This document shows positions 56,764 through 61,943 of a DNA stretch of 64,000 nucleotides, one piece after another (positions within the stretch are counted from its first letter, which is position 1; every line of letters starts with the position of its first letter). Source of the stretch: Bizionia hallyeonensis. GTDB taxonomy: Bacteria > Bacteroidota > Bacteroidia > Flavobacteriales > Flavobacteriaceae. The notes under the pieces were generated by a model, which searched no databases, was not told the origin of the DNA, and saw only the letters and a program-made list of their open reading frames with translations. The stretch spans positions 376,746 to 440,745 of the forward strand of contig NZ_JBHSLA010000001.1 in the NCBI RefSeq assembly GCF_042657385.1. The letters run 5' to 3'. The translations under genes and the position numbers were made by a program.

Positions 56764-58563
56764 CTATAAAACAGGAATTTCAATACTATTTATAGCCTGC
56801 TCATAAACCATAATATCAGCCTGAATTACAGTTGTATTTGGCTCCATCGTTTCCTTAAACAGCTTTTGATAATAGCCCACACCTTCTAATAAATTAGCTT
56901 TAAAGATTGTCCATTTTTTAATTTGCTTCGCGGATAAATCATCTGTAAACATGGCTATGTCATTCTTTAAATAATCCACATACATTTTCAGCTCTTTTAC
57001 AAACATATTCGGTCTGTAAGTATCCGATAAAACGGATGTTTTTCCATAAATATGCTTAACCATTTGTGCCAATGAAACCTCTTTATCGAAATAAGCTAAA
57101 TTGGGTCCCGGACAAATTACCACACCTTGCTGTTGCCCTTTTATAGGCATATCATTTTCCAGATAAGATGCATTGGCAAGACCAACACAAAGACAGGCTT
57201 TTTCAGTAATTTTGTTTTTTGTCATTTCAAAAACAGTAGCCGTCAACGTTTCTTTTTTCGCCTCCAATTCCTCCAATTTTACATCCTGATATTTTTTGGA
57301 TGCCGTACAAATACCTTCTGGCCCAAACTCTTTACTCAAGGCTAAAAACTTTTTAGGACAGGAACTTCCCGCTTTGTTGTTATCAATACGGGTTTGCTTA
57401 TAAAACTCGTTAGAGGTTCCCTTAATGGTATTAAAAGGCACGCCTAATGGCGAAATACCGCTTAAATACAAATCGGATTCTTTAGCTTCTGCCAATAACT
57501 TGCGTGTTTCGATGTCCACAGATGTAGCTTCTGGAACTAATAAAAATGGACTGCCCCAACCTACAGAATCTACCTGATAATTGTCAATTAAAAAATCGTG
57601 TTCCGCAGCCGTACCAACACCACCTTGAACGGTTATTTTTATATCTAATGGCTTTTCTGGGATATACAACGCTTTATCTGTTAATGCTTTTACAAAAACG
57701 TTATGTGTGTCTTGTATTAGTTCTGATTTTTTGCTTTTAAATTCTTCTAAAATGGGTCCCAACAAATGCCCGTCTGTAGCAAAGGCATGACCACCACAAT
57801 TTAAACCAGATTCAATTCGGTATTCAGACACCCAAAGACCCCTTTTAGCTAAAAATTTCCCCTGAATTATAGCAGAACGGAAATCGCTTACTTTTAAAAT
57901 AATTTTCTTTTTAATCTGATTTTTGGCATTGGGATAAAAATCGATGAAATTTTCAAAATAACTATACAATCTTGGGTTCATACCTGCCGAAAGCACCACA
58001 GACGAACTTAAATTACTATTAGCAAAACCGCGAAGTGATGCGTGTGCATCATTAAATTCTACTGGTAATTGTTCCGATTTAATAAAGTTTTCTTTATCAA
58101 TTTTGGTCATGATATTCACATCAATTTCACCAGCCGATAAATGAGAGTCTACATAGTTTTTAATGCTATCTTTAAGCATCAAACCTTCATCTAACAAATT
58201 TGAAAGTCCTTGTTTGATGTTGGACTTATTGGGAAGCATATCTATAAAATTCTCTAAAGCCGATTTACTTTCTGAAATTTCTTCTTTAAATTTTACAAAC
58301 TTATTTTTAACAATGGTATCAACCAAGTTTAAATATGCTGTAATACGTTTAGCACGATAATCGTCCACCTTTTTAGAAATTTCCTGATAAGGCAGACTAA
58401 ATTTTTCACTATAAAAAGCGTTCATACGTTCTAAAAGCTCATCGTCAATAATTGAAATTACAGACGAAATCCCGTATTGCGCCACACGAATAGGGCTATC
58501 TATGGTATAGGCTAAACCCATAACAGGAATATGGAAATTATGTGTGTGGTTGGATGCTCTCAT
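56764..58563 (-). CDS. uncharacterized 599-aa protein with a C-terminal (beta/alpha)8-barrel phosphate-binding-like motif (NMO/IMPDH/FabK class)
   Basis: QGGVGTAAEHDFLIDNYQVDSVGWGSPFLLVPEATS follows the GG(I/V)-x-T...V-x-x-G(S/T)-x-FL-x-x-E pattern of FMN/IMP TIM barrels. The N-terminal roughly 250 aa are unrecognised. Confidence 0.45.
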   Translation of the reverse strand: MRASNHTHNFHIPVMGLAYTIDSPIRVAQYGISSVISIIDDELLERMNAFYSEKFSLPYQEISKKVDDYRAKRITAYLNLVDTIVKNKFVKFKEEISESKSALENFIDMLPNKSNIKQGLSNLLDEGLMLKDSIKNYVDSHLSAGEIDVNIMTKIDKENFIKSEQLPVEFNDAHASLRGFANSNLSSSVVLSAGMNPRLYSYFENFIDFYPNAKNQIKKKIILKVSDFRSAIIQGKFLAKRGLWVSEYRIESGLNCGGHAFATDGHLLGPILEEFKSKKSELIQDTHNVFVKALTDKALYIPEKPLDIKITVQGGVGTAAEHDFLIDNYQVDSVGWGSPFLLVPEATSVDIETRKLLAEAKESDLYLSGISPLGVPFNTIKGTSNEFYKQTRIDNNKAGSSCPKKFLALSKEFGPEGICTASKKYQDVKLEELEAKKETLTATVFEMTKNKITEKACLCVGLANASYLENDMPIKGQQQGVVICPGPNLAYFDKEVSLAQMVKHIYGKTSVLSDTYRPNMFVKELKMYVDYLKNDIAMFTDDLSAKQIKKWTIFKANLLEGVGYYQKLFKETMEPNTTVIQADIMVYEQAINSIEIPVL

Positions 58564-58827
58564 GATGTGTATTTTAAAAAATAATTAAGCCGCAAAAGTG
58601 CTAAATGTAAACTTCCTAAAAGATGATAAATATCATACCTTTTAGTCTTTTATTATTTTAGATTAGAAAATTTTAAAAACAATTGTTGATATACGTCAAG
58701 CCTTTACCTTTCTGCATTTATCTTTTCAGAAGAAATATGTACACCAATAGGTTTTAATTATTACTTTTAAAAACTGTAACATGTACCTATCTATTTCATG
58801 TTCTGCAATCTGCCATAAAACCACCGC

Positions 58828-59320
58828 ATGACTACCTTCCCTGTTTCTGCCTCAACTCTCTCTGAAACCGCTTTAGGCAACTTCATAAAAGACACGTATC
58901 AACTAGCGGCAAATTTTAGCTGTAAGTTATACCGAACAGGTTTAAACCATACCTACTTTATTACAGATGGGCAAACCACTTATGTTATTCGGGTTTACTG
59001 CTATAACTGGCGAACAAAAACGGAAATTCAGGAAGAATTACGTTTATTAAACCAACTTAAAAACAACAACCTTTCGGTTTCATTTCCTATTGCTGACAAA
59101 AATGGGATCGTAATTCAAGACATTCAAGCACCAGAAGGACTGCGCCATGTGGTACTTTTTTCCTTTGCTAAAGGGGTGACAAAATTCGCGTTATGAAACC
59201 AGACACCTGTTTTGCTATTGGCGAAATTATGGCCAAAATTCATAATGAAACCGAAGGACAGAATTATGAACTGTACAGCCCAAACTTTGATTTTAAAAAT
59301 AGTGGGTAAGATTTTCGTTC
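58828..59320 (+). pseudogene. disrupted phosphotransferase-family (APH / homoserine-kinase type II-like) gene, with a -1 frameshift near 59172-59196 and a 3' truncation
   Basis: Frame 1 encodes an APH-like N-lobe (GLNHTYFITDGQTTYVIRVY...EIQEELRLLNQL...RHVVLFSFAKG) and stops at 59196. Frame 0 continues MKPDTCFAIGEIMAKIHNETEGQNYELYSPNFDF (APH brace region lG..lA.lH) and stops at 59320. The catalytic HGD/N and DxD regions are absent. Confidence 0.6.
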
Positions 59321-59403
59321 CGAAAATCCGCTAACAAAAACCCGCACTTTTCATTCACAAAACCGTTGGATTAAATTTAACAGTATCATTAAAAAGTAAA
59401 CCT

Positions 59404-59498
59404 AATTGTTTACTTTTTTTATTTATTGTAAACATATAAGATTACTTTTTTATATATTTGTAAATGCATATGTTTACAATTTTATTATTTTGTAAACT
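59404..59498. promoter_or_regulatory. nested inverted repeats (GTTTAC/GTAAAC half-sites) upstream of the HTH gene. Putative operator/promoter.
   Basis: aattGTTTAC (59404-13), ttgTAAACatat (59425-36), atatGTTTACaa (59468-79), ttGTAAACtt (59489-98). ATTGTAAACATAT and ATATGTTTACAAT form a 12-bp perfect inverted repeat. Confidence 0.35.
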
Positions 59499-59514
59499 TA
59501 AAGCTTTACAAAAA

Positions 59515-59976
59515 ATGAGAAATAAGCACAAACTTTTAATTGAGCAGTTAGACCAAAAGCTTCGTCCATTCGCTGAAACCCGAAAGATCATGGTTCCACA
59601 ACGCGGATGGATAAATACAATTAGAACATCTCTCAATATGACAATGGCACAACTTGGCGCCAAATTAAATATAACACGACAAGGTGTAAAAAGAATTGAA
59701 GAAAGTGAGGCTAATGGTTCCATAACGCTCAAATCTTTAAAAGATGTAGCCCATGCACTGGATTTAAAATTAATATATGCACTAGTGCCAATAAATGGGA
59801 CCATCAACGATTTAGTTGAAATAAAAGCAGAAAATCTGGCCAGAAAGATTGTATTAAGAACCAATCAAAATATGAAATTAGAAGACCAAGGAATTGGCGA
59901 TGAAAAACTAGCTAAAACAATAGAGGAACTGGCTAGTGAAATAAAACGCGAGATGAAAAAATCATTATGGGATTAG
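59515..59976 (+). CDS. XRE-family HTH protein of the 'mobile mystery protein A' type, partner of the downstream Fic protein. Start moved to MRNKHKL.
   Basis: HTH MTMAQLGAKLNITRQGVKRIE. About 153 aa. Overlaps the downstream Fic gene by 10 nt. The pairing with a short Fic protein is the A/B family signature. Confidence 0.65.
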   Translation: MRNKHKLLIEQLDQKLRPFAETRKIMVPQRGWINTIRTSLNMTMAQLGAKLNITRQGVKRIEESEANGSITLKSLKDVAHALDLKLIYALVPINGTINDLVEIKAENLARKIVLRTNQNMKLEDQGIGDEKLAKTIEELASEIKREMKKSLWD

Positions 59977-60563
59977 AATTTGATTATAAAGTAGGACAAA
60001 CACCTTTAGACGAAGTTGAAAAGGAGGGTCTTAAAATGAAGTCAATTACTACGCAAGGGGAACTGGATGAATTTGAGCAATTGAATATTGAAAAAGCTGT
60101 CGAATGGACCATTCATACAAAATTGAAACCTGAAAAAATTTTAACGGAAAAATTTGTAAAAGACTTACATAAAAAAATGTATGGCGATGTATGGAAATGG
60201 GCAGGTGAATTCAGAATGACTGAAAAAAACATTGGAATCCCTTGGACACAAATTGGAATTGAATTAAAAAATTTACTGGACGACACGAAATACTGGATAG
60301 AACACAAAACTTTTCCGCCTGAAGAAATAGCTATAAGATTTAAACATCGCATAGTATCCATTCATTGCTTTCCAAATGGAAATGGAAGGCACTCCCGAAT
60401 GATGGCTGACATTATTATGGAATCCATATTCGGGAATGACATATTTACTTGGCATCAATCAAATACGGTAAAAGCTAGCGAAACACGAAATAAGTATATA
60501 AAATCCTTGAGAGAAGCTGATAATGGTAATTTTACATCGTTAATTGAATTTGCAAAAAACTAA
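59967..60563 (+). CDS. Fic/Doc-family protein of the 'mobile mystery protein B' type (putative AMPylating toxin)
   Basis: Fic active-site motif HCFPNGNGRHSR (HxFx[D/E/N]GNGRxxR). 198 aa. Confidence 0.75.
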   Translation: MGLEFDYKVGQTPLDEVEKEGLKMKSITTQGELDEFEQLNIEKAVEWTIHTKLKPEKILTEKFVKDLHKKMYGDVWKWAGEFRMTEKNIGIPWTQIGIELKNLLDDTKYWIEHKTFPPEEIAIRFKHRIVSIHCFPNGNGRHSRMMADIIMESIFGNDIFTWHQSNTVKASETRNKYIKSLREADNGNFTSLIEFAKN

Positions 60564-60584
60564 AATTAGCTTAAACTGAAAAAG

Positions 60585-61244
60585 ATGCTGAACTACAACA
60601 AAATATTTCTGATTAGAGAATCTTATTCTAATCGTCCATTTAGAGGTGTTATTGAAAATTTTGATTTGGCCGAACCTAAAATTTCAAGAGGAGAAAAACA
60701 CATAACAGAAACGGTTACGGTAAAACATATAATGGGTGGACAAACCCTTTATGATATAATTTGGACAACCAATGCTTTTCCGCTAATAGTTAGCGAAAGA
60801 GTAATTAGGTTATTTAAATCAAATGGAATTACAGGTTGGAAAACATACAATGTTGAAATTCGCTCAAAAAAGAATGAATTGATTGACCAAAATTTTTTCG
60901 GACTTATTATAACTGGTCGCTGTGGCCATCGAGATTATTCTAAAAGCTCAATAGTATTAAGCAAAATTGGAGTGTACACCAAACCTCACATTAAAGGTTT
61001 TTATTTTAACGATGATTCTTGTGACGATTCTGATTTATTTATGAGTAACCCAGATGACGAAGGACATTCAACTATGCATCGTTTTTGCTCACAAAATGTT
61101 GTAAACCTATTTCAAAAAGAAAAAATAAAGAATATTAATTTTGAAAACCTAAATGAGTCAACATTGGCAATTGAATTACACCAAATACCCCTGACTGACA
61201 AACAAAAATCTGAAATGGAAAAATTAAAAACCAACGGTAAGTAA
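60585..61244 (+). CDS. hypothetical 219-aa protein, possibly an immunity-protein-like (DUF1629/Imm-type) fold
   Basis: 21 nt downstream of and co-oriented with the Fic gene. PLIVSERVIRLFKSNGITGWKTYNVEI and SDLFMSNPDDEGHSTMHRFCSQNVVNLFQKEKIKNINFENL resemble the v-S-E-x-l...G...f blocks of some polymorphic-toxin immunity families. This is from memory, not verified. Confidence 0.35.
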   Translation: MLNYNKIFLIRESYSNRPFRGVIENFDLAEPKISRGEKHITETVTVKHIMGGQTLYDIIWTTNAFPLIVSERVIRLFKSNGITGWKTYNVEIRSKKNELIDQNFFGLIITGRCGHRDYSKSSIVLSKIGVYTKPHIKGFYFNDDSCDDSDLFMSNPDDEGHSTMHRFCSQNVVNLFQKEKIKNINFENLNESTLAIELHQIPLTDKQKSEMEKLKTNGK

Positions 61245-61275
61245 TGAACAACTCCTATTTAAATCAAGTAAACGT

Positions 61276-61674
61276 TTATTCCAAAGAATATTCTGCAACC
61301 AATTTCACAAAATCCAAAGAACTAATCATGCCTACTATATTTCCTTCGTCCATTACAACCATGTGGTGTACGTCGTGCCTCAGCATCATTTTAGCGGCCG
61401 CATTAGCGCTTGAATTCATATGGACTACATGAACTCTAGATGATGTCATGACATCTTCCACAGTCGTGCTTTCTTGAACATCTTTATTCATATCCGTCGT
61501 GGTGACAATACCGCGTATAATCATCTCCGTATCTAATATGTCTTTGGAATAGGATATAATGGGAATAGCATTAATTCCTTTATCCTTCATTCGCGCTCTT
61601 ACCTCAATAACACTGTTTTCTCCTTTAGCTGTAATAACTGGTGCTGACATAAAATCTTTTACTTGTATTTTCAT
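61276..61674 (-). CDS. CBS-pair domain protein
   Basis: 132 aa with two CBS repeats (VKDFMSAPVITA... and VEDVMTSSRVHVVH...). Confidence 0.8.
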   Translation of the reverse strand: MKIQVKDFMSAPVITAKGENSVIEVRARMKDKGINAIPIISYSKDILDTEMIIRGIVTTTDMNKDVQESTTVEDVMTSSRVHVVHMNSSANAAAKMMLRHDVHHMVVMDEGNIVGMISSLDFVKLVAEYSLE

Positions 61675-61943
61675 AAACTCTTGGTTTAAATTTTATAATA
61701 CTAAAAGCAGAAATAACCATCCACTCGCCATAATTGTAAATATAAGATTATGTGAGCCTAATTCATATGATATTAATCATATTAAGTTGAATAGACAATG
61801 TAGAAAATAAAGAAGTAGCAACTAAAACACTTTTTAGCTTTTTCTGTTGTATGCTTCCACAGTTGATAAAATGAGATGTGAATTAAACAGGCGACGTTTT
61901 AAGCGTTTATCATTCAAATGTTCGACCTATGCTTGACCTACCT

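What the first reader, a model, noticed from the sequence alone, without database searches (positions are those of the whole stretch)
59515..60563. XRE-HTH + Fic two-gene module with a variant Fic motif (HCFPNGNGRHSR) and a 10-nt coding overlap
The HTH gene comes first and is translationally coupled to the Fic gene, which is the antitoxin-then-toxin order of type II TA and Fic/anti-Fic modules. Position 5 of the Fic motif is Asn rather than the usual Asp/Glu (HxFx[D/E]GNGRxxR). No recognisable inhibitory S/TxxxE(G/N) alpha-inh helix is obvious in either protein on a by-eye read. The Fic protein may therefore be constitutively active and controlled only at the transcriptional level by the HTH partner.
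Basis: partly seen in the sequence, partly recalled or inferred. Interest (0 to 1): 0.7.

Follow-up and report, generated by a model that had tools for sequence, protein, structure and literature searches.

The report
Mobile mystery protein A/B pair
This is an ordinary copy of a widespread, already named but never characterised two-gene cassette (a DNA-binding protein followed by a Fic enzyme).

Summary
A 153-aa XRE-HTH gene (59515-59976) overlaps a 198-aa Fic gene (59967-60563) by 10 nt, and the Fic motif reads HCFPNGNGRHSR.

It is not new. The two proteins score above the curated cut-offs of NCBIfam TIGR02612 and TIGR02613 (mobile mystery proteins A and B). Proteins up to 98% identical are already annotated that way in Bizionia. 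Relatives of B sit on 262 plasmids and on no phage.

The Asn at motif position 5 is a family hallmark (113 of 120 diverse members). The AMPylase CccR, described in the literature, has the same Asn.

The Fic family has no conserved internal inhibitory motif. Its predicted structure is closest to VbhT, a toxin that is inhibited by a separate antitoxin.

The HTH partner has a conserved C-terminal extension with the motif (S/T/N)-M-x-L-E-x-Q. The Glu was invariant in all 80 sequences examined. The motif resembles the inhibitory S-x-R-L-E-G of VbhA and EcFicA, but homology was not detectable.

Four 18-bp palindromes lie exactly 32 bp apart upstream of the HTH gene. Across relatives the palindrome arms change together with the HTH recognition helix.

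Best reading: an autorepressed, plasmid-type Fic toxin-antitoxin module whose antitoxin both represses the operon and inhibits the enzyme directly. Toxicity, enzyme activity and target are untested.

The parts
59396..59413 (.). Operator-like palindrome O1: GTAAAC-CTAATT-GTTTAC (perfect arms)
   Evidence: This is the only 0-mismatch match to GTAAAC-N6-GTTTAC in the 64 kb window.
59428..59445 (.). Operator-like palindrome O2: GTAAAC-ATATAA-GATTAC, 32 bp after O1
   Evidence: 1 mismatch.
59453..59460 (+). TATATTTG, which matches the Bacteroidota -7 promoter element TAnnTTTG and overlaps O3 by one base
   Evidence: Read from the sequence. The consensus is recalled from the literature on Bacteroides and Flavobacterium promoters; no transcription start site was determined.
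59460..59477 (.). Operator-like palindrome O3: GTAAAT-GCATAT-GTTTAC, 32 bp after O2
   Evidence: 1 mismatch.
59492..59509 (.). Operator-like palindrome O4: GTAAAC-TTAAAG-CTTTAC, 32 bp after O3 and ending 5 nt before the ATG
   Evidence: 1 mismatch. The four sites are the only matches with at most 1 mismatch in the window.
59515..59976 (+). Mobile mystery protein A: 153-aa XRE-HTH protein, proposed autorepressor and antitoxin
   Evidence: TIGR02612 scores 148.2 bits against a cut-off of 122.6. Pfam HTH_3 matches residues 36-86. There are 1994 homologues, mostly 153 aa.
59620..59772 (+). HTH_3 domain of A (residues 36-86). The predicted recognition helix lies around T54-R-Q-G-V-K59.
   Evidence: The helix residues co-vary with the operator half-site across 72 loci.
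59869..59889 (+). N119-M-K-L-E123-D-Q125, the candidate inhibitory (alpha-inh-like) motif in the C-terminal extension of A
   Evidence: M120, L122, E123 and Q125 are invariant in 72 of 72 sequences and in 8 of 8 distant plasmid copies. The motif resembles VbhA S-Q-R-L-E24-G and EcFicA S-R-R-L-E28-G.
59967..59976 (+). 10-nt overlap ATGGGATTAG (A stop codon and B start codon), consistent with translational coupling
   Evidence: Kept as ATGGGAYTAR in 72 of 76 pairs. The proteobacterial plasmid copies checked overlap by 4 nt or 1 nt.
59967..60563 (+). Mobile mystery protein B: 198-aa Fic-fold enzyme, proposed toxin
   Evidence: TIGR02613 scores 251.1 bits against a cut-off of 124.4. Pfam Fic. AlphaFold pLDDT 94.1 and pTM 0.90. 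The best Foldseek match is VbhT.
60363..60398 (+). Fic active-site motif H133-C-F-P-N137-G-N-G-R141-H-S-R144
   Evidence: Conservation across 120 members: H 110, F 110, N137 113, G 118, N 117, G 116, R141 119, R144 118.

Best explanation
The two genes are a chromosomal copy of the mobile mystery protein A/B cassette (TIGR02612/TIGR02613). I read it as a plasmid-type, type II toxin-antitoxin-like Fic module.

Shown:
- Family membership of both proteins.
- Strict pairing of the two genes, with start/stop overlap.
- B has a Fic fold with a complete catalytic His, GNGR anion hole and second Arg, and no internal inhibitory motif.
- Asn at motif position 5 is the family norm.
- An array of four phased palindromes lies upstream of A, and the palindrome arms co-vary with A's recognition helix across relatives.

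Inferred:
- A binds the four operators as a dimer and represses its own operon. O3 abuts a candidate -7 box.
- A also binds B through its conserved C-terminal extension (helix ending at E123, second helix ending in the invariant W152).
- A places E123 in the ATP gamma-phosphate site against R144, as VbhA E24 and EcFicA E28 do. This would block AMP transfer and could convert the complex into a de-AMPylase, as shown for Fic-1-AntF.
- Loss or titration of A would free B to AMPylate an essential target, which is unknown here.

The confidence of 0.55 is for the mechanism as a whole. Family membership alone is about 0.97, direct neutralisation of B by A about 0.6, and E123 as the inhibitory Glu about 0.45.
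For: Family membership:
- Both proteins exceed the curated NCBIfam cut-offs.
- Homologues at 85-98% identity are already named mobile mystery protein A/B.

Linkage of the two genes:
- A lies directly upstream of B in 78 of 80 loci. The two exceptions showed no A in the DNA held; for one of them the match starts at the contig end.
- The overlap is kept in 72 of 76 pairs.
- Identities of A and B to the window correlate at r = 0.92, and A is the less conserved partner in 68 of 69 pairs.

Mobility:
- B relatives lie on 262 plasmids, including pTiC58, Rhizobium, Coxiella QpH1, Vibrio and Rickettsia, and on no phage.

The Fic protein:
- The fold is modelled with confidence (pLDDT 94.1, pTM 0.90).
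- The best structural matches are the class I toxins VbhT (TM 0.66-0.70 over 181-184 columns), EcFicT and Fic-1, plus the FICD core.
- No (S/T)xxxE(G/N) is conserved anywhere in B (at most 3 of 120 at any position).

The candidate inhibitory motif in A:
- E123, M120, L122, Q125 and W152 are invariant, including in eight pairs from plasmids of Alpha- and Gammaproteobacteria.
- The motif shares [ST]-x-[RK]-L-E with VbhA and EcFicA.
- Sequence after the Glu is rich in helix breakers (D-Q-G-I-G or D-Q-E-N-S).
- A low-confidence model ends a helix exactly at residue 123.

Autoregulation:
- Four palindromes lie at an exact 32-bp pitch and are unique in the window.
- Two to four such palindromes, spaced about 32 bp apart, occur upstream of A in other clades.
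- Arm sequence tracks the recognition helix: GTAAAC with T(R/K)QG(V/A)K, GTCAGG with T(K/R)QS(V/I)Q, (T/C)ATAC with (T/S)KGA(I/V)Q, GTAAAG with TKQAVM.

Compatibility of Asn with catalysis:
- CccR has the motif HPFGNGNGRTVR and AMPylates FtsZ (PMC9755527).

Complex as a de-AMPylase:
- Precedent is Fic-1-AntF with Glu28 (PMC13327609).
Against: - No experiment exists on any member of the family. A literature search found only four passing mentions.
- The window's own motif, N-MKL-E-D, fails the strict (S/T)xxxE(G/N) pattern. Only 6 of 72 family members pass it strictly.
- The C-terminal part of A shows no detectable homology to VbhA (hhalign probability 1.5%), to any Pfam family or to any PDB chain.
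- I could not model the A-B complex.
- The model of A alone is unreliable (pLDDT 43.9).
- In Coxiella, CRISPRi of every QpH1 ORF gave a growth defect only for the HigA2-like antitoxin (PMC10098735). This is weak evidence, because knock-down of A is polar on B and the Coxiella B is annotated as an N-terminally truncated 159-aa protein.
- The chromosomal copy is syntenic in a second Bizionia genome, so it is not obviously mobile here.
Confidence: 0.55

Rival explanations
1. B has no protein inhibitor at all, is constitutively active, and is kept in check only by transcriptional repression from A.
For: The strict inhibitory regex is absent from both window proteins. There is no detectable homology of A to VbhA-type antitoxins. 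Operator evidence shows that A is a DNA binder.
Against: A carries a roughly 60-residue C-terminal extension beyond the HTH. It has five invariant residues, including a Glu in an alpha-inh-like context, and these are kept across phyla. Repressor function alone does not explain that conservation. Strict co-occurrence, start/stop overlap and co-evolution of the pair are what a stoichiometric protein partner predicts. B is structurally nearest to toxins that use a trans inhibitor.
Confidence: 0.12
2. Not a toxin-antitoxin pair. A-B is a stable two-subunit regulatory enzyme, for example a reversible AMPylase/de-AMPylase acting on a non-essential target, or on A itself to tune its DNA binding.
For: The copy is stably syntenic in two Bizionia genomes. 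B is very highly conserved across Flavobacteriaceae genera (85-98%). Precedents are Fic-1-AntF acting as a de-AMPylase and the Fic-HTH protein CccR acting as both regulator and enzyme. No growth defect was reported for the QpH1 copy in the CRISPRi screen.
Against: Enrichment on plasmids (262 records) next to conjugation, partition and recombinase genes and the patchy distribution fit an addiction or selfish module better. The architecture (repressor-antitoxin first, overlapping enzyme second) is the type II TA pattern.
Confidence: 0.15
3. An anti-phage abortive-infection module. B is a defence Fic effector, related to the PADLOC candidate PDC-S04 and to SoFic, that is released when phage infection depletes or inactivates A.
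For: B matches the PADLOC models PDC-S04 (E 2.3e-18) and SoFic (E 1.9e-11). A Vibrio copy lies beside a type I restriction subunit gene, and a Bradyrhizobium copy beside an AbiEi-family antitoxin gene.
Against: PDC-S04 is an unverified candidate and showed no defence activity when tested in one native host (bioRxiv 10.1101/2024.12.20.629700). PADLOC models have no curated cut-offs, and any Fic protein is expected to hit them. In this window the neighbours are housekeeping genes. This rival does not exclude the TA reading.
Confidence: 0.12

Closest known systems
Mobile mystery proteins A and B (NCBIfam/TIGRFAMs TIGR02612 and TIGR02613, type 'hypothetical equivalog')
   Same: Both window proteins exceed the curated cut-offs over the full length. 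Gene order, sizes (153 and 198 aa) and the HTH plus Fic composition match. Near-identical proteins are already annotated this way.
   Different: Nothing differs; this is a member. The family name itself records that its function is unknown.
Class I FicTA modules: VbhT-VbhA (Bartonella), EcFicT-EcFicA/YhfG (E. coli), Fic-1-AntF (Pseudomonas)
   Same: A small upstream gene overlaps the Fic gene. The Fic protein lacks its own inhibitory helix. VbhT is the best structural match to the B model. The partner carries [ST/N]-x-[K/R]-L-E with an invariant Glu.
   Different: The partner is 153 aa with an XRE-HTH domain, not a 55-62-aa helical peptide. The residue after the Glu is D/N/A/R, not G. There is no detectable sequence homology to VbhA. 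The Fic motif has Asn rather than Asp/Glu at position 5. B is only 16-19% identical to these toxins. Target and activity are unknown.
CccR of Yersinia pseudotuberculosis (Fic plus HTH in one chain; probably PDB 7xux)
   Same: Same Asn-containing motif (HPFGNGNGRTVR). It combines Fic chemistry with autorepression by an HTH. The B family profile hits 7xux at E 8e-10.
   Different: CccR is a single 380-aa class II protein with an internal inhibitory helix and a C-terminal HTH, and it is secreted by a T6SS. Here the HTH is on a separate upstream protein.
Phd-Doc
   Same: A Fido-fold toxin with an upstream DNA-binding antitoxin that autoregulates the operon.
   Different: Doc has the motif HxFx(D/N)(A/G)NKR and is a kinase of EF-Tu. 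B keeps GNGR, the AMPylase-type anion hole.

Membership tests
TIGR02613 mobile mystery protein B | Full-length match to the family HMM above the curated cut-off | tested here: met
   251.1 bits against a cut-off of 124.4; residues 12-197 align to positions 2-186 of 186.
TIGR02613 mobile mystery protein B | Encoded immediately downstream of a mobile mystery protein A gene | tested here: met
   A ends at 59976 and B starts at 59967. The same arrangement holds in 78 of 80 loci.
TIGR02612 mobile mystery protein A | Full-length match to the family HMM above the curated cut-off | tested here: met
   148.2 bits against a cut-off of 122.6; residues 5-153 align to positions 2-149 of 150.
Fic/Fido AMPylases | Fic fold | tested here: met
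   Pfam PF02661 E 2.1e-10. AlphaFold pLDDT 94.1. Foldseek probability 1.00 to VbhT, FICD, EcFicT and EfFic. The family profile matches FICD at E 6e-18.
Fic/Fido AMPylases | Canonical motif HxFx(D/E)GNGRxxR | tested here: not met
   H, F, GNGR and the second R are present, but position 5 is Asn137. Asn is the family consensus (113 of 120) and occurs in the active AMPylase CccR.
Fic/Fido AMPylases | AMP transfer to a protein target | not testable with these tools
   No biochemical data exist for any family member.
Class I FicTA (VbhTA type) | Upstream partner gene, co-translated, and a Fic protein without its own inhibitory helix | tested here: met
Class I FicTA (VbhTA type) | Partner carries (S/T)xxxE(G/N) | tested here: inconclusive
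   The window has N-MKL-E-D, which fails the strict pattern. In the family the Glu is invariant in 72 of 72, Ser/Thr sits at -4 in 38 of 72, and the strict motif occurs in 6 of 72. Among distant plasmid copies 7 of 8 have Ser/Thr at -4, and Coxiella is exact.
Class I FicTA (VbhTA type) | Partner homologous to VbhA/FicA antitoxins | tested here: not met
   hhalign probability 1.5%. No Pfam or PDB hit for the C-terminal part.
Class I FicTA (VbhTA type) | Toxicity of the Fic protein and its neutralisation by the partner's Glu | not testable with these tools
Class II / class III Fic (intramolecular inhibition) | N- or C-terminal helix with (S/T)xxxE(G/N) in the Fic protein itself | tested here: not met
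   No aligned position has the motif in more than 3 of 120 members. In the model, residues 1-29 are coil plus a 4-residue helix, and the chain ends with the core helices.
Doc kinases | Motif HxFx(D/N)(A/G)NKR (Lys in place of the second Gly) | tested here: not met
   The window has GNGR; G140 is kept in 116 of 120 members.
Type II toxin-antitoxin operons in general | Antitoxin is a DNA-binding autorepressor with operators in its own promoter | tested here: inconclusive
   The computational support is strong: four unique palindromes at a 32-bp pitch, and arms that co-vary with the recognition helix in 72 loci. No binding or expression data exist.
PADLOC PDC-S04 / SoFic defence candidates | Match to the model and demonstrated phage defence | tested here: inconclusive
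   HMM hits at E 2.3e-18 and 1.9e-11, without curated cut-offs. PDC-S04 showed no defence activity in the one native-host test found.

The most novel reading that the evidence does not exclude
Mobile mystery A/B would be a distinct fourth layout of Fic control. The inhibitory glutamate helix would be fused to an XRE autorepressor that reads a phased four-operator array. One protein would then couple transcriptional repression, direct active-site obstruction and possibly de-AMPylation. The family-wide Asp/Glu-to-Asn change at motif position 5 would retune metal or nucleotide use. This would assign a mechanism to a cassette carried by Ti plasmids, Coxiella QpH1, and Vibrio and Rickettsia plasmids.
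Probability: 0.35. Interest if true: 0.5.

Novelty: already known. Interest (0 to 1): 0.3.

Why it matters
As a sequence feature it does not matter much. It is one more copy of an annotated cassette with thousands of relatives. The residual value is that the cassette has never been studied, although it sits on well-known plasmids (pTiC58, QpH1). This analysis gives three concrete, cheap-to-test hypotheses:
- E123 of protein A is a trans-acting inhibitory Glu.
- The Asn137 variant is compatible with AMPylation.
- A reads a 32-bp-phased array of 18-bp palindromes.

Tried and rejected
1. Modelling the A-B complex.
- I then tried the natural read-through fusion P0328 as a stand-in. MAFFT placed the A fragments and the B N-termini on the wrong columns, in the tool and in my own trials with several modes and subsets. 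Such an alignment would have corrupted exactly the motif columns, so I dropped this route.
- The other fusion, P0253, has lost the Glu.

2. Modelling A alone. The accepted shallow alignment (79-88% identical rows) gave a useless model (pLDDT 43.9). Only its helix boundaries are quoted, as weak evidence.

3. Sequence homology of A's C-terminal part to antitoxins. PDB profile search, Pfam at E up to 10 and hhalign against VbhA were all negative.

4. An intramolecular inhibitory Glu in B.
- The N-terminal G10-x-T12-P13-L14 segment loosely recalls the E-G-N-T-L that follows the inhibitory helix in FICD (FICD sequence from memory). However, position 9 is acidic in only 46 of 120 members and is Val here, with no Ser/Thr at -4.
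- E16-xxx-E20-G21 is not conserved.
- T28-xxx-E32-L aligns to the start of core helix alpha1.
- All three were rejected.

5. I recalled a Coxiella QpH1 TA study as possibly being about this pair. It concerns a HigB2/HigA2-like pair instead.

6. The first attempt at search for related loci with the 86-sequence alignment failed for lack of a conserved stretch. A 13-sequence alignment worked.

7. The downstream 219-aa ORF as a third component was rejected. It is absent from all the other related loci searched and accompanies the pair only in the Bizionia relative.

8. An Rfam scan of 58500-61800 found nothing at E up to 1.
Full report
**1. Observation**

- The window holds an ORF at 59515-59976 (+, 153 aa) and an ORF at 59967-60563 (+, 198 aa). 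They overlap by the 10 nt ATGGGATTAG.
- A longer reading of the first ORF from 59464 is unlikely. The TIGR02612 profile aligns from residue 5 of the 153-aa form. Most of the 1994 homologues are 153 aa. The upstream ATG lies inside an operator palindrome.
- The Fic motif H133-C-F-P-N137-G-N-G-R-H-S-R144 is encoded at 60363-60398.
- Pfam assigns HTH_3 to the first protein and Fic to the second, both above gathering scores.

**2. What it is**

- NCBIfam identifies the pair as mobile mystery protein A (TIGR02612, 148.2 bits, cut-off 122.6) and mobile mystery protein B (TIGR02613, 251.1 bits, cut-off 124.4). Both models are of type 'hypothetical equivalog'.
- The 5.8-billion-protein search returned 7994 relatives of B out of 8000 candidates scored. 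The best 120 are all 85-98% identical and 198 aa long. They come from Flavobacteriaceae (Bizionia best), and NCBI and JGI already name many of them 'mobile mystery protein B'. The same holds for A.
- The exhaustive search of 50%-identity representatives found 2389 clusters at E up to 1e-3 and 243 at E up to 1e-30.
- A tblastn search found B on 262 plasmids and on no phage. The plasmids include Agrobacterium Ti plasmids (pTi of C58), Rhizobium and Sinorhizobium, Coxiella burnetii QpH1-type, Vibrio and Rickettsia.
- The plasmid copies are annotated A then B. They often lie among conjugation, partition, recombinase or transposase genes.
- The literature library holds only four passing mentions of the name and no functional study.
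- Makarova et al. 2009 already listed Fic/Doc-Xre as a recurrent gene pair in their TA survey (PMC2701414).

**3. Local context**

- The neighbours are housekeeping genes: YicC, guanylate kinase, a cytidylyltransferase-like gene, a CBS-domain protein and an M50/RseP protease.
- A Bizionia relative (GCA_001678685.1) has the same locus with the same flanks. This copy is therefore chromosomal and syntenic within the genus.
- Relative to that genome the window lacks about 2.1 kb just upstream of A, which truncates an APH-like gene. The relative in turn lacks 64 bp, two operator units, of the promoter region.
- The 219-aa ORF downstream (weak Imm11 hit, below cut-off) accompanies the pair only in the Bizionia relative. 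It was found in none of the other related loci, so I do not count it as part of the module.
- No Rfam family matches the region.

**4. The 'variant' Fic motif**

- I aligned 119 full-length cluster representatives (37-65% identical to the window protein) with the window protein, 120 sequences in all.
- Motif position 5 is Asn in 113 of the 120. The catalytic His (110), Phe (110), G-N-G-R (116-119) and second Arg (118) are also conserved.
- The Asn therefore defines the family and is not a local change.
- It is not without precedent. CccR of Yersinia pseudotuberculosis has H192-PFGNGNGRTV-R203 and is reported to AMPylate FtsZ (PMC9755527).
- The B family profile hits a 380-aa 'Fido domain-containing protein' (PDB 7xux), probably CccR, at E 8e-10.
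- B keeps GNGR, so it is not of the Doc kinase type.

**5. Is there an inhibitory helix in B?**

- In the 120-member alignment no position carries (S/T)xxxE(G/N) in more than 3 sequences.
- The AlphaFold model of B is confident (pLDDT 94.1, pTM 0.90). It shows coil for residues 1-15, a four-residue helix at 16-19, and then the core helices to the C-terminus, with no additional N- or C-terminal helix.
- Foldseek against the PDB ranks VbhT first (E 1e-6, TM 0.66-0.70, 181-184 aligned columns of a 185-199-residue chain). VbhT is the class I toxin that is inhibited by the separate antitoxin VbhA. FICD cores, EcFicT, EfFic and Fic-1 follow.
- B therefore looks like a toxin that expects an inhibitor in trans.

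**6. The partner protein A: conservation**

- I recovered 80 genome loci (Bacteroidota, Ignavibacteria, Chlorobiota; B 54-91% identical).
- A lies directly upstream of B in 78 of them. The two exceptions showed no A in the DNA held; for one of them the match starts at the contig end.
- The 10-nt overlap is kept as ATGGGAYTAR in 72 of 76 measurable pairs. In seven of the eight proteobacterial plasmid copies the overlap is 4 nt or 1 nt instead; in the Coxiella copy the annotated genes are 112 nt apart. Coupling is therefore general, while the 10-nt form is specific to this clade.
- A is the faster-evolving partner in 68 of 69 pairs, and the two identities correlate at r = 0.92.
- Beyond the HTH domain (residues 36-86), A has a conserved C-terminal extension. 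A109, I112, M120, L122, E123, Q125 and W152 are invariant in 72 sequences.

**7. The partner protein A: candidate inhibitory motif**

- The local motif is R-T-(S/N)-x-(T/S/N)119-M-(K/R)-L-E123-(D/N)-Q.
- The eight distant plasmid copies keep it:
  - Coxiella T-MEL-E-N-Q, an exact (S/T)xxxE(G/N).
  - pTiC58 T-MRL-E-A-Q.
  - Vibrio S-MFL-E-A-Q.
  - Rickettsia S-MLL-E-D-Q.
  - Bradyrhizobium T-MRL-E-D-Q.
- The solved class I antitoxins read A-S-Q-R-L-E24-G (VbhA) and A-S-R-R-L-E28-G (EcFicA). The shared core is [ST]-x-[RK]-L-E.
- The window's version is N-M-K-L-E-D.
- The residues after the Glu are helix breakers. The model of A, which is unreliable (pLDDT 43.9), ends a helix at residue 123.
- Against this, no profile method detects homology between this segment and VbhA or anything else, and I could not build a model of the complex.
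- I therefore treat 'E123 is a trans-acting inhibitory Glu' as an inference at roughly even odds, not as a result.

**8. Autoregulation**

- Upstream of A lie four 18-bp palindromes with 6-nt arms and 6-nt spacers: 59396-59413, 59428-59445, 59460-59477 and 59492-59509. Their starts are exactly 32 bp apart.
- They are the only matches with at most one mismatch to GTAAAC-N6-GTTTAC in the 64-kb window.
- TATATTTG at 59453-59460 fits the Bacteroidota -7 element TAnnTTTG (consensus from memory) and abuts O3.
- Other loci have two to four palindromes of the same geometry, usually 31-33 bp apart, upstream of A.
- The arm sequence changes with the predicted recognition helix of A:
  - GTAAAC or GTAAAT with T(R/K)QG(V/A/I)K.
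  - GTCAGG, GTCAGT or GTCAAT with T(K/R)QS(V/I/L)Q.
  - GTAAAG with TKQAVM.
  - ..(T/C)ATAC with (T/S)KGA(I/V)Q.
  - TTAAGG with (A/P)QS(V/T/A)K.
- This co-variation is good computational evidence that A binds these sites and represses its own operon.

**9. Mechanism proposed**

- Shown: family membership, strict pairing and overlap, the Fic fold and an intact catalytic motif with a family-wide Asn, the absence of an internal inhibitory motif, the conserved C-terminal extension of A, and the operator array with helix/half-site co-variation.
- Inferred:
  - A dimers occupy the phased operators and shut off the operon.
  - A's C-terminal extension binds B and inserts E123 against R144 and the gamma-phosphate site, as VbhA and EcFicA do.
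  - The complex may de-AMPylate, as Fic-1-AntF does through AntF Glu28 (PMC13327609).
  - Free B AMPylates an essential target.
- The target cannot be inferred. Known options among relatives are GyrB/ParE, EF-Tu and FtsZ.

**10. Rivals**

- A non-toxic regulatory enzyme pair.
- An abortive-infection defence module. PADLOC PDC-S04 and SoFic models hit B, but PDC-S04 is unverified and gave no defence activity in one native-host test.
- The Coxiella CRISPRi screen of QpH1 found a growth defect only for a HigA2-like antitoxin (PMC10098735). It is weak evidence against toxicity of the QpH1 copy, because knock-down of A is polar on B and that B is annotated as truncated.

**11. Verdict**

- The finding is real but ordinary. 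It is an already annotated, very common cassette, and its supposedly unusual motif is the family consensus.
- The family remains biochemically uncharacterised. The hypotheses above are testable and mildly interesting to people who work on Fic and TA systems.

Noticed in passing
window 58828-59263 (compare L089 3237-5374): Relative to a Bizionia genome (GCA_001678685.1) the window lacks about 2.1 kb just upstream of the A promoter. The missing piece holds the 3' part of an APH-like gene, a 98-aa ORF, an Asp_protease_2 gene and a 180-aa ORF. The ORF at 58828-59196 is therefore a truncated APH-like remnant.
   Followed up: partly
window 59396-59509 versus L089 5490-5548: The number of operator units varies between close relatives. 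The window and the Polaribacter and Aquiflexum loci have four 32-bp units. The Bizionia relative has two, which is 64 bp shorter and loses the TATATTTG box.
   Followed up: partly
window 60585-61244 (+): A 219-aa ORF 21 nt after B has a weak Imm11 (immunity protein) hit at E 1.7e-4, below the Pfam cut-off. It is kept in the Bizionia relative but was found in none of the other related loci, so it is probably unrelated to the module.
   Followed up: partly
window 56764-58563 (-): A 599-aa ORF has no Pfam match at E up to 1e-3. It is conserved (599 aa) at the same place in the Bizionia relative.
   Followed up: no
P0253 (315 aa) and P0328 (267 aa), from the 50% representative library: Natural A-B read-through products exist. 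P0253 joins A residues 1-125 to B residues 12-198, with the Glu replaced. P0328 joins only the C-terminal segment of A (RTDSSMKLENQ, an exact inhibitory-type motif) to B. Its odd C-terminus suggests assembly frameshifts.
   Followed up: partly
L081 (Coxiella burnetii QpH1-type plasmid NZ_CP020617.1) 79-1129: The Coxiella copy of B is annotated as 159 aa and starts 112 nt after A. It appears N-terminally truncated compared with the family. Its A carries the exact motif T-MEL-E-N.
   Followed up: partly
L001-L080, 140 nt upstream of each A gene: The operator half-site and the HTH recognition-helix residues co-vary across clades, giving at least five half-site/helix classes. This is a ready-made natural specificity series for an XRE repressor.
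   Followed up: yes
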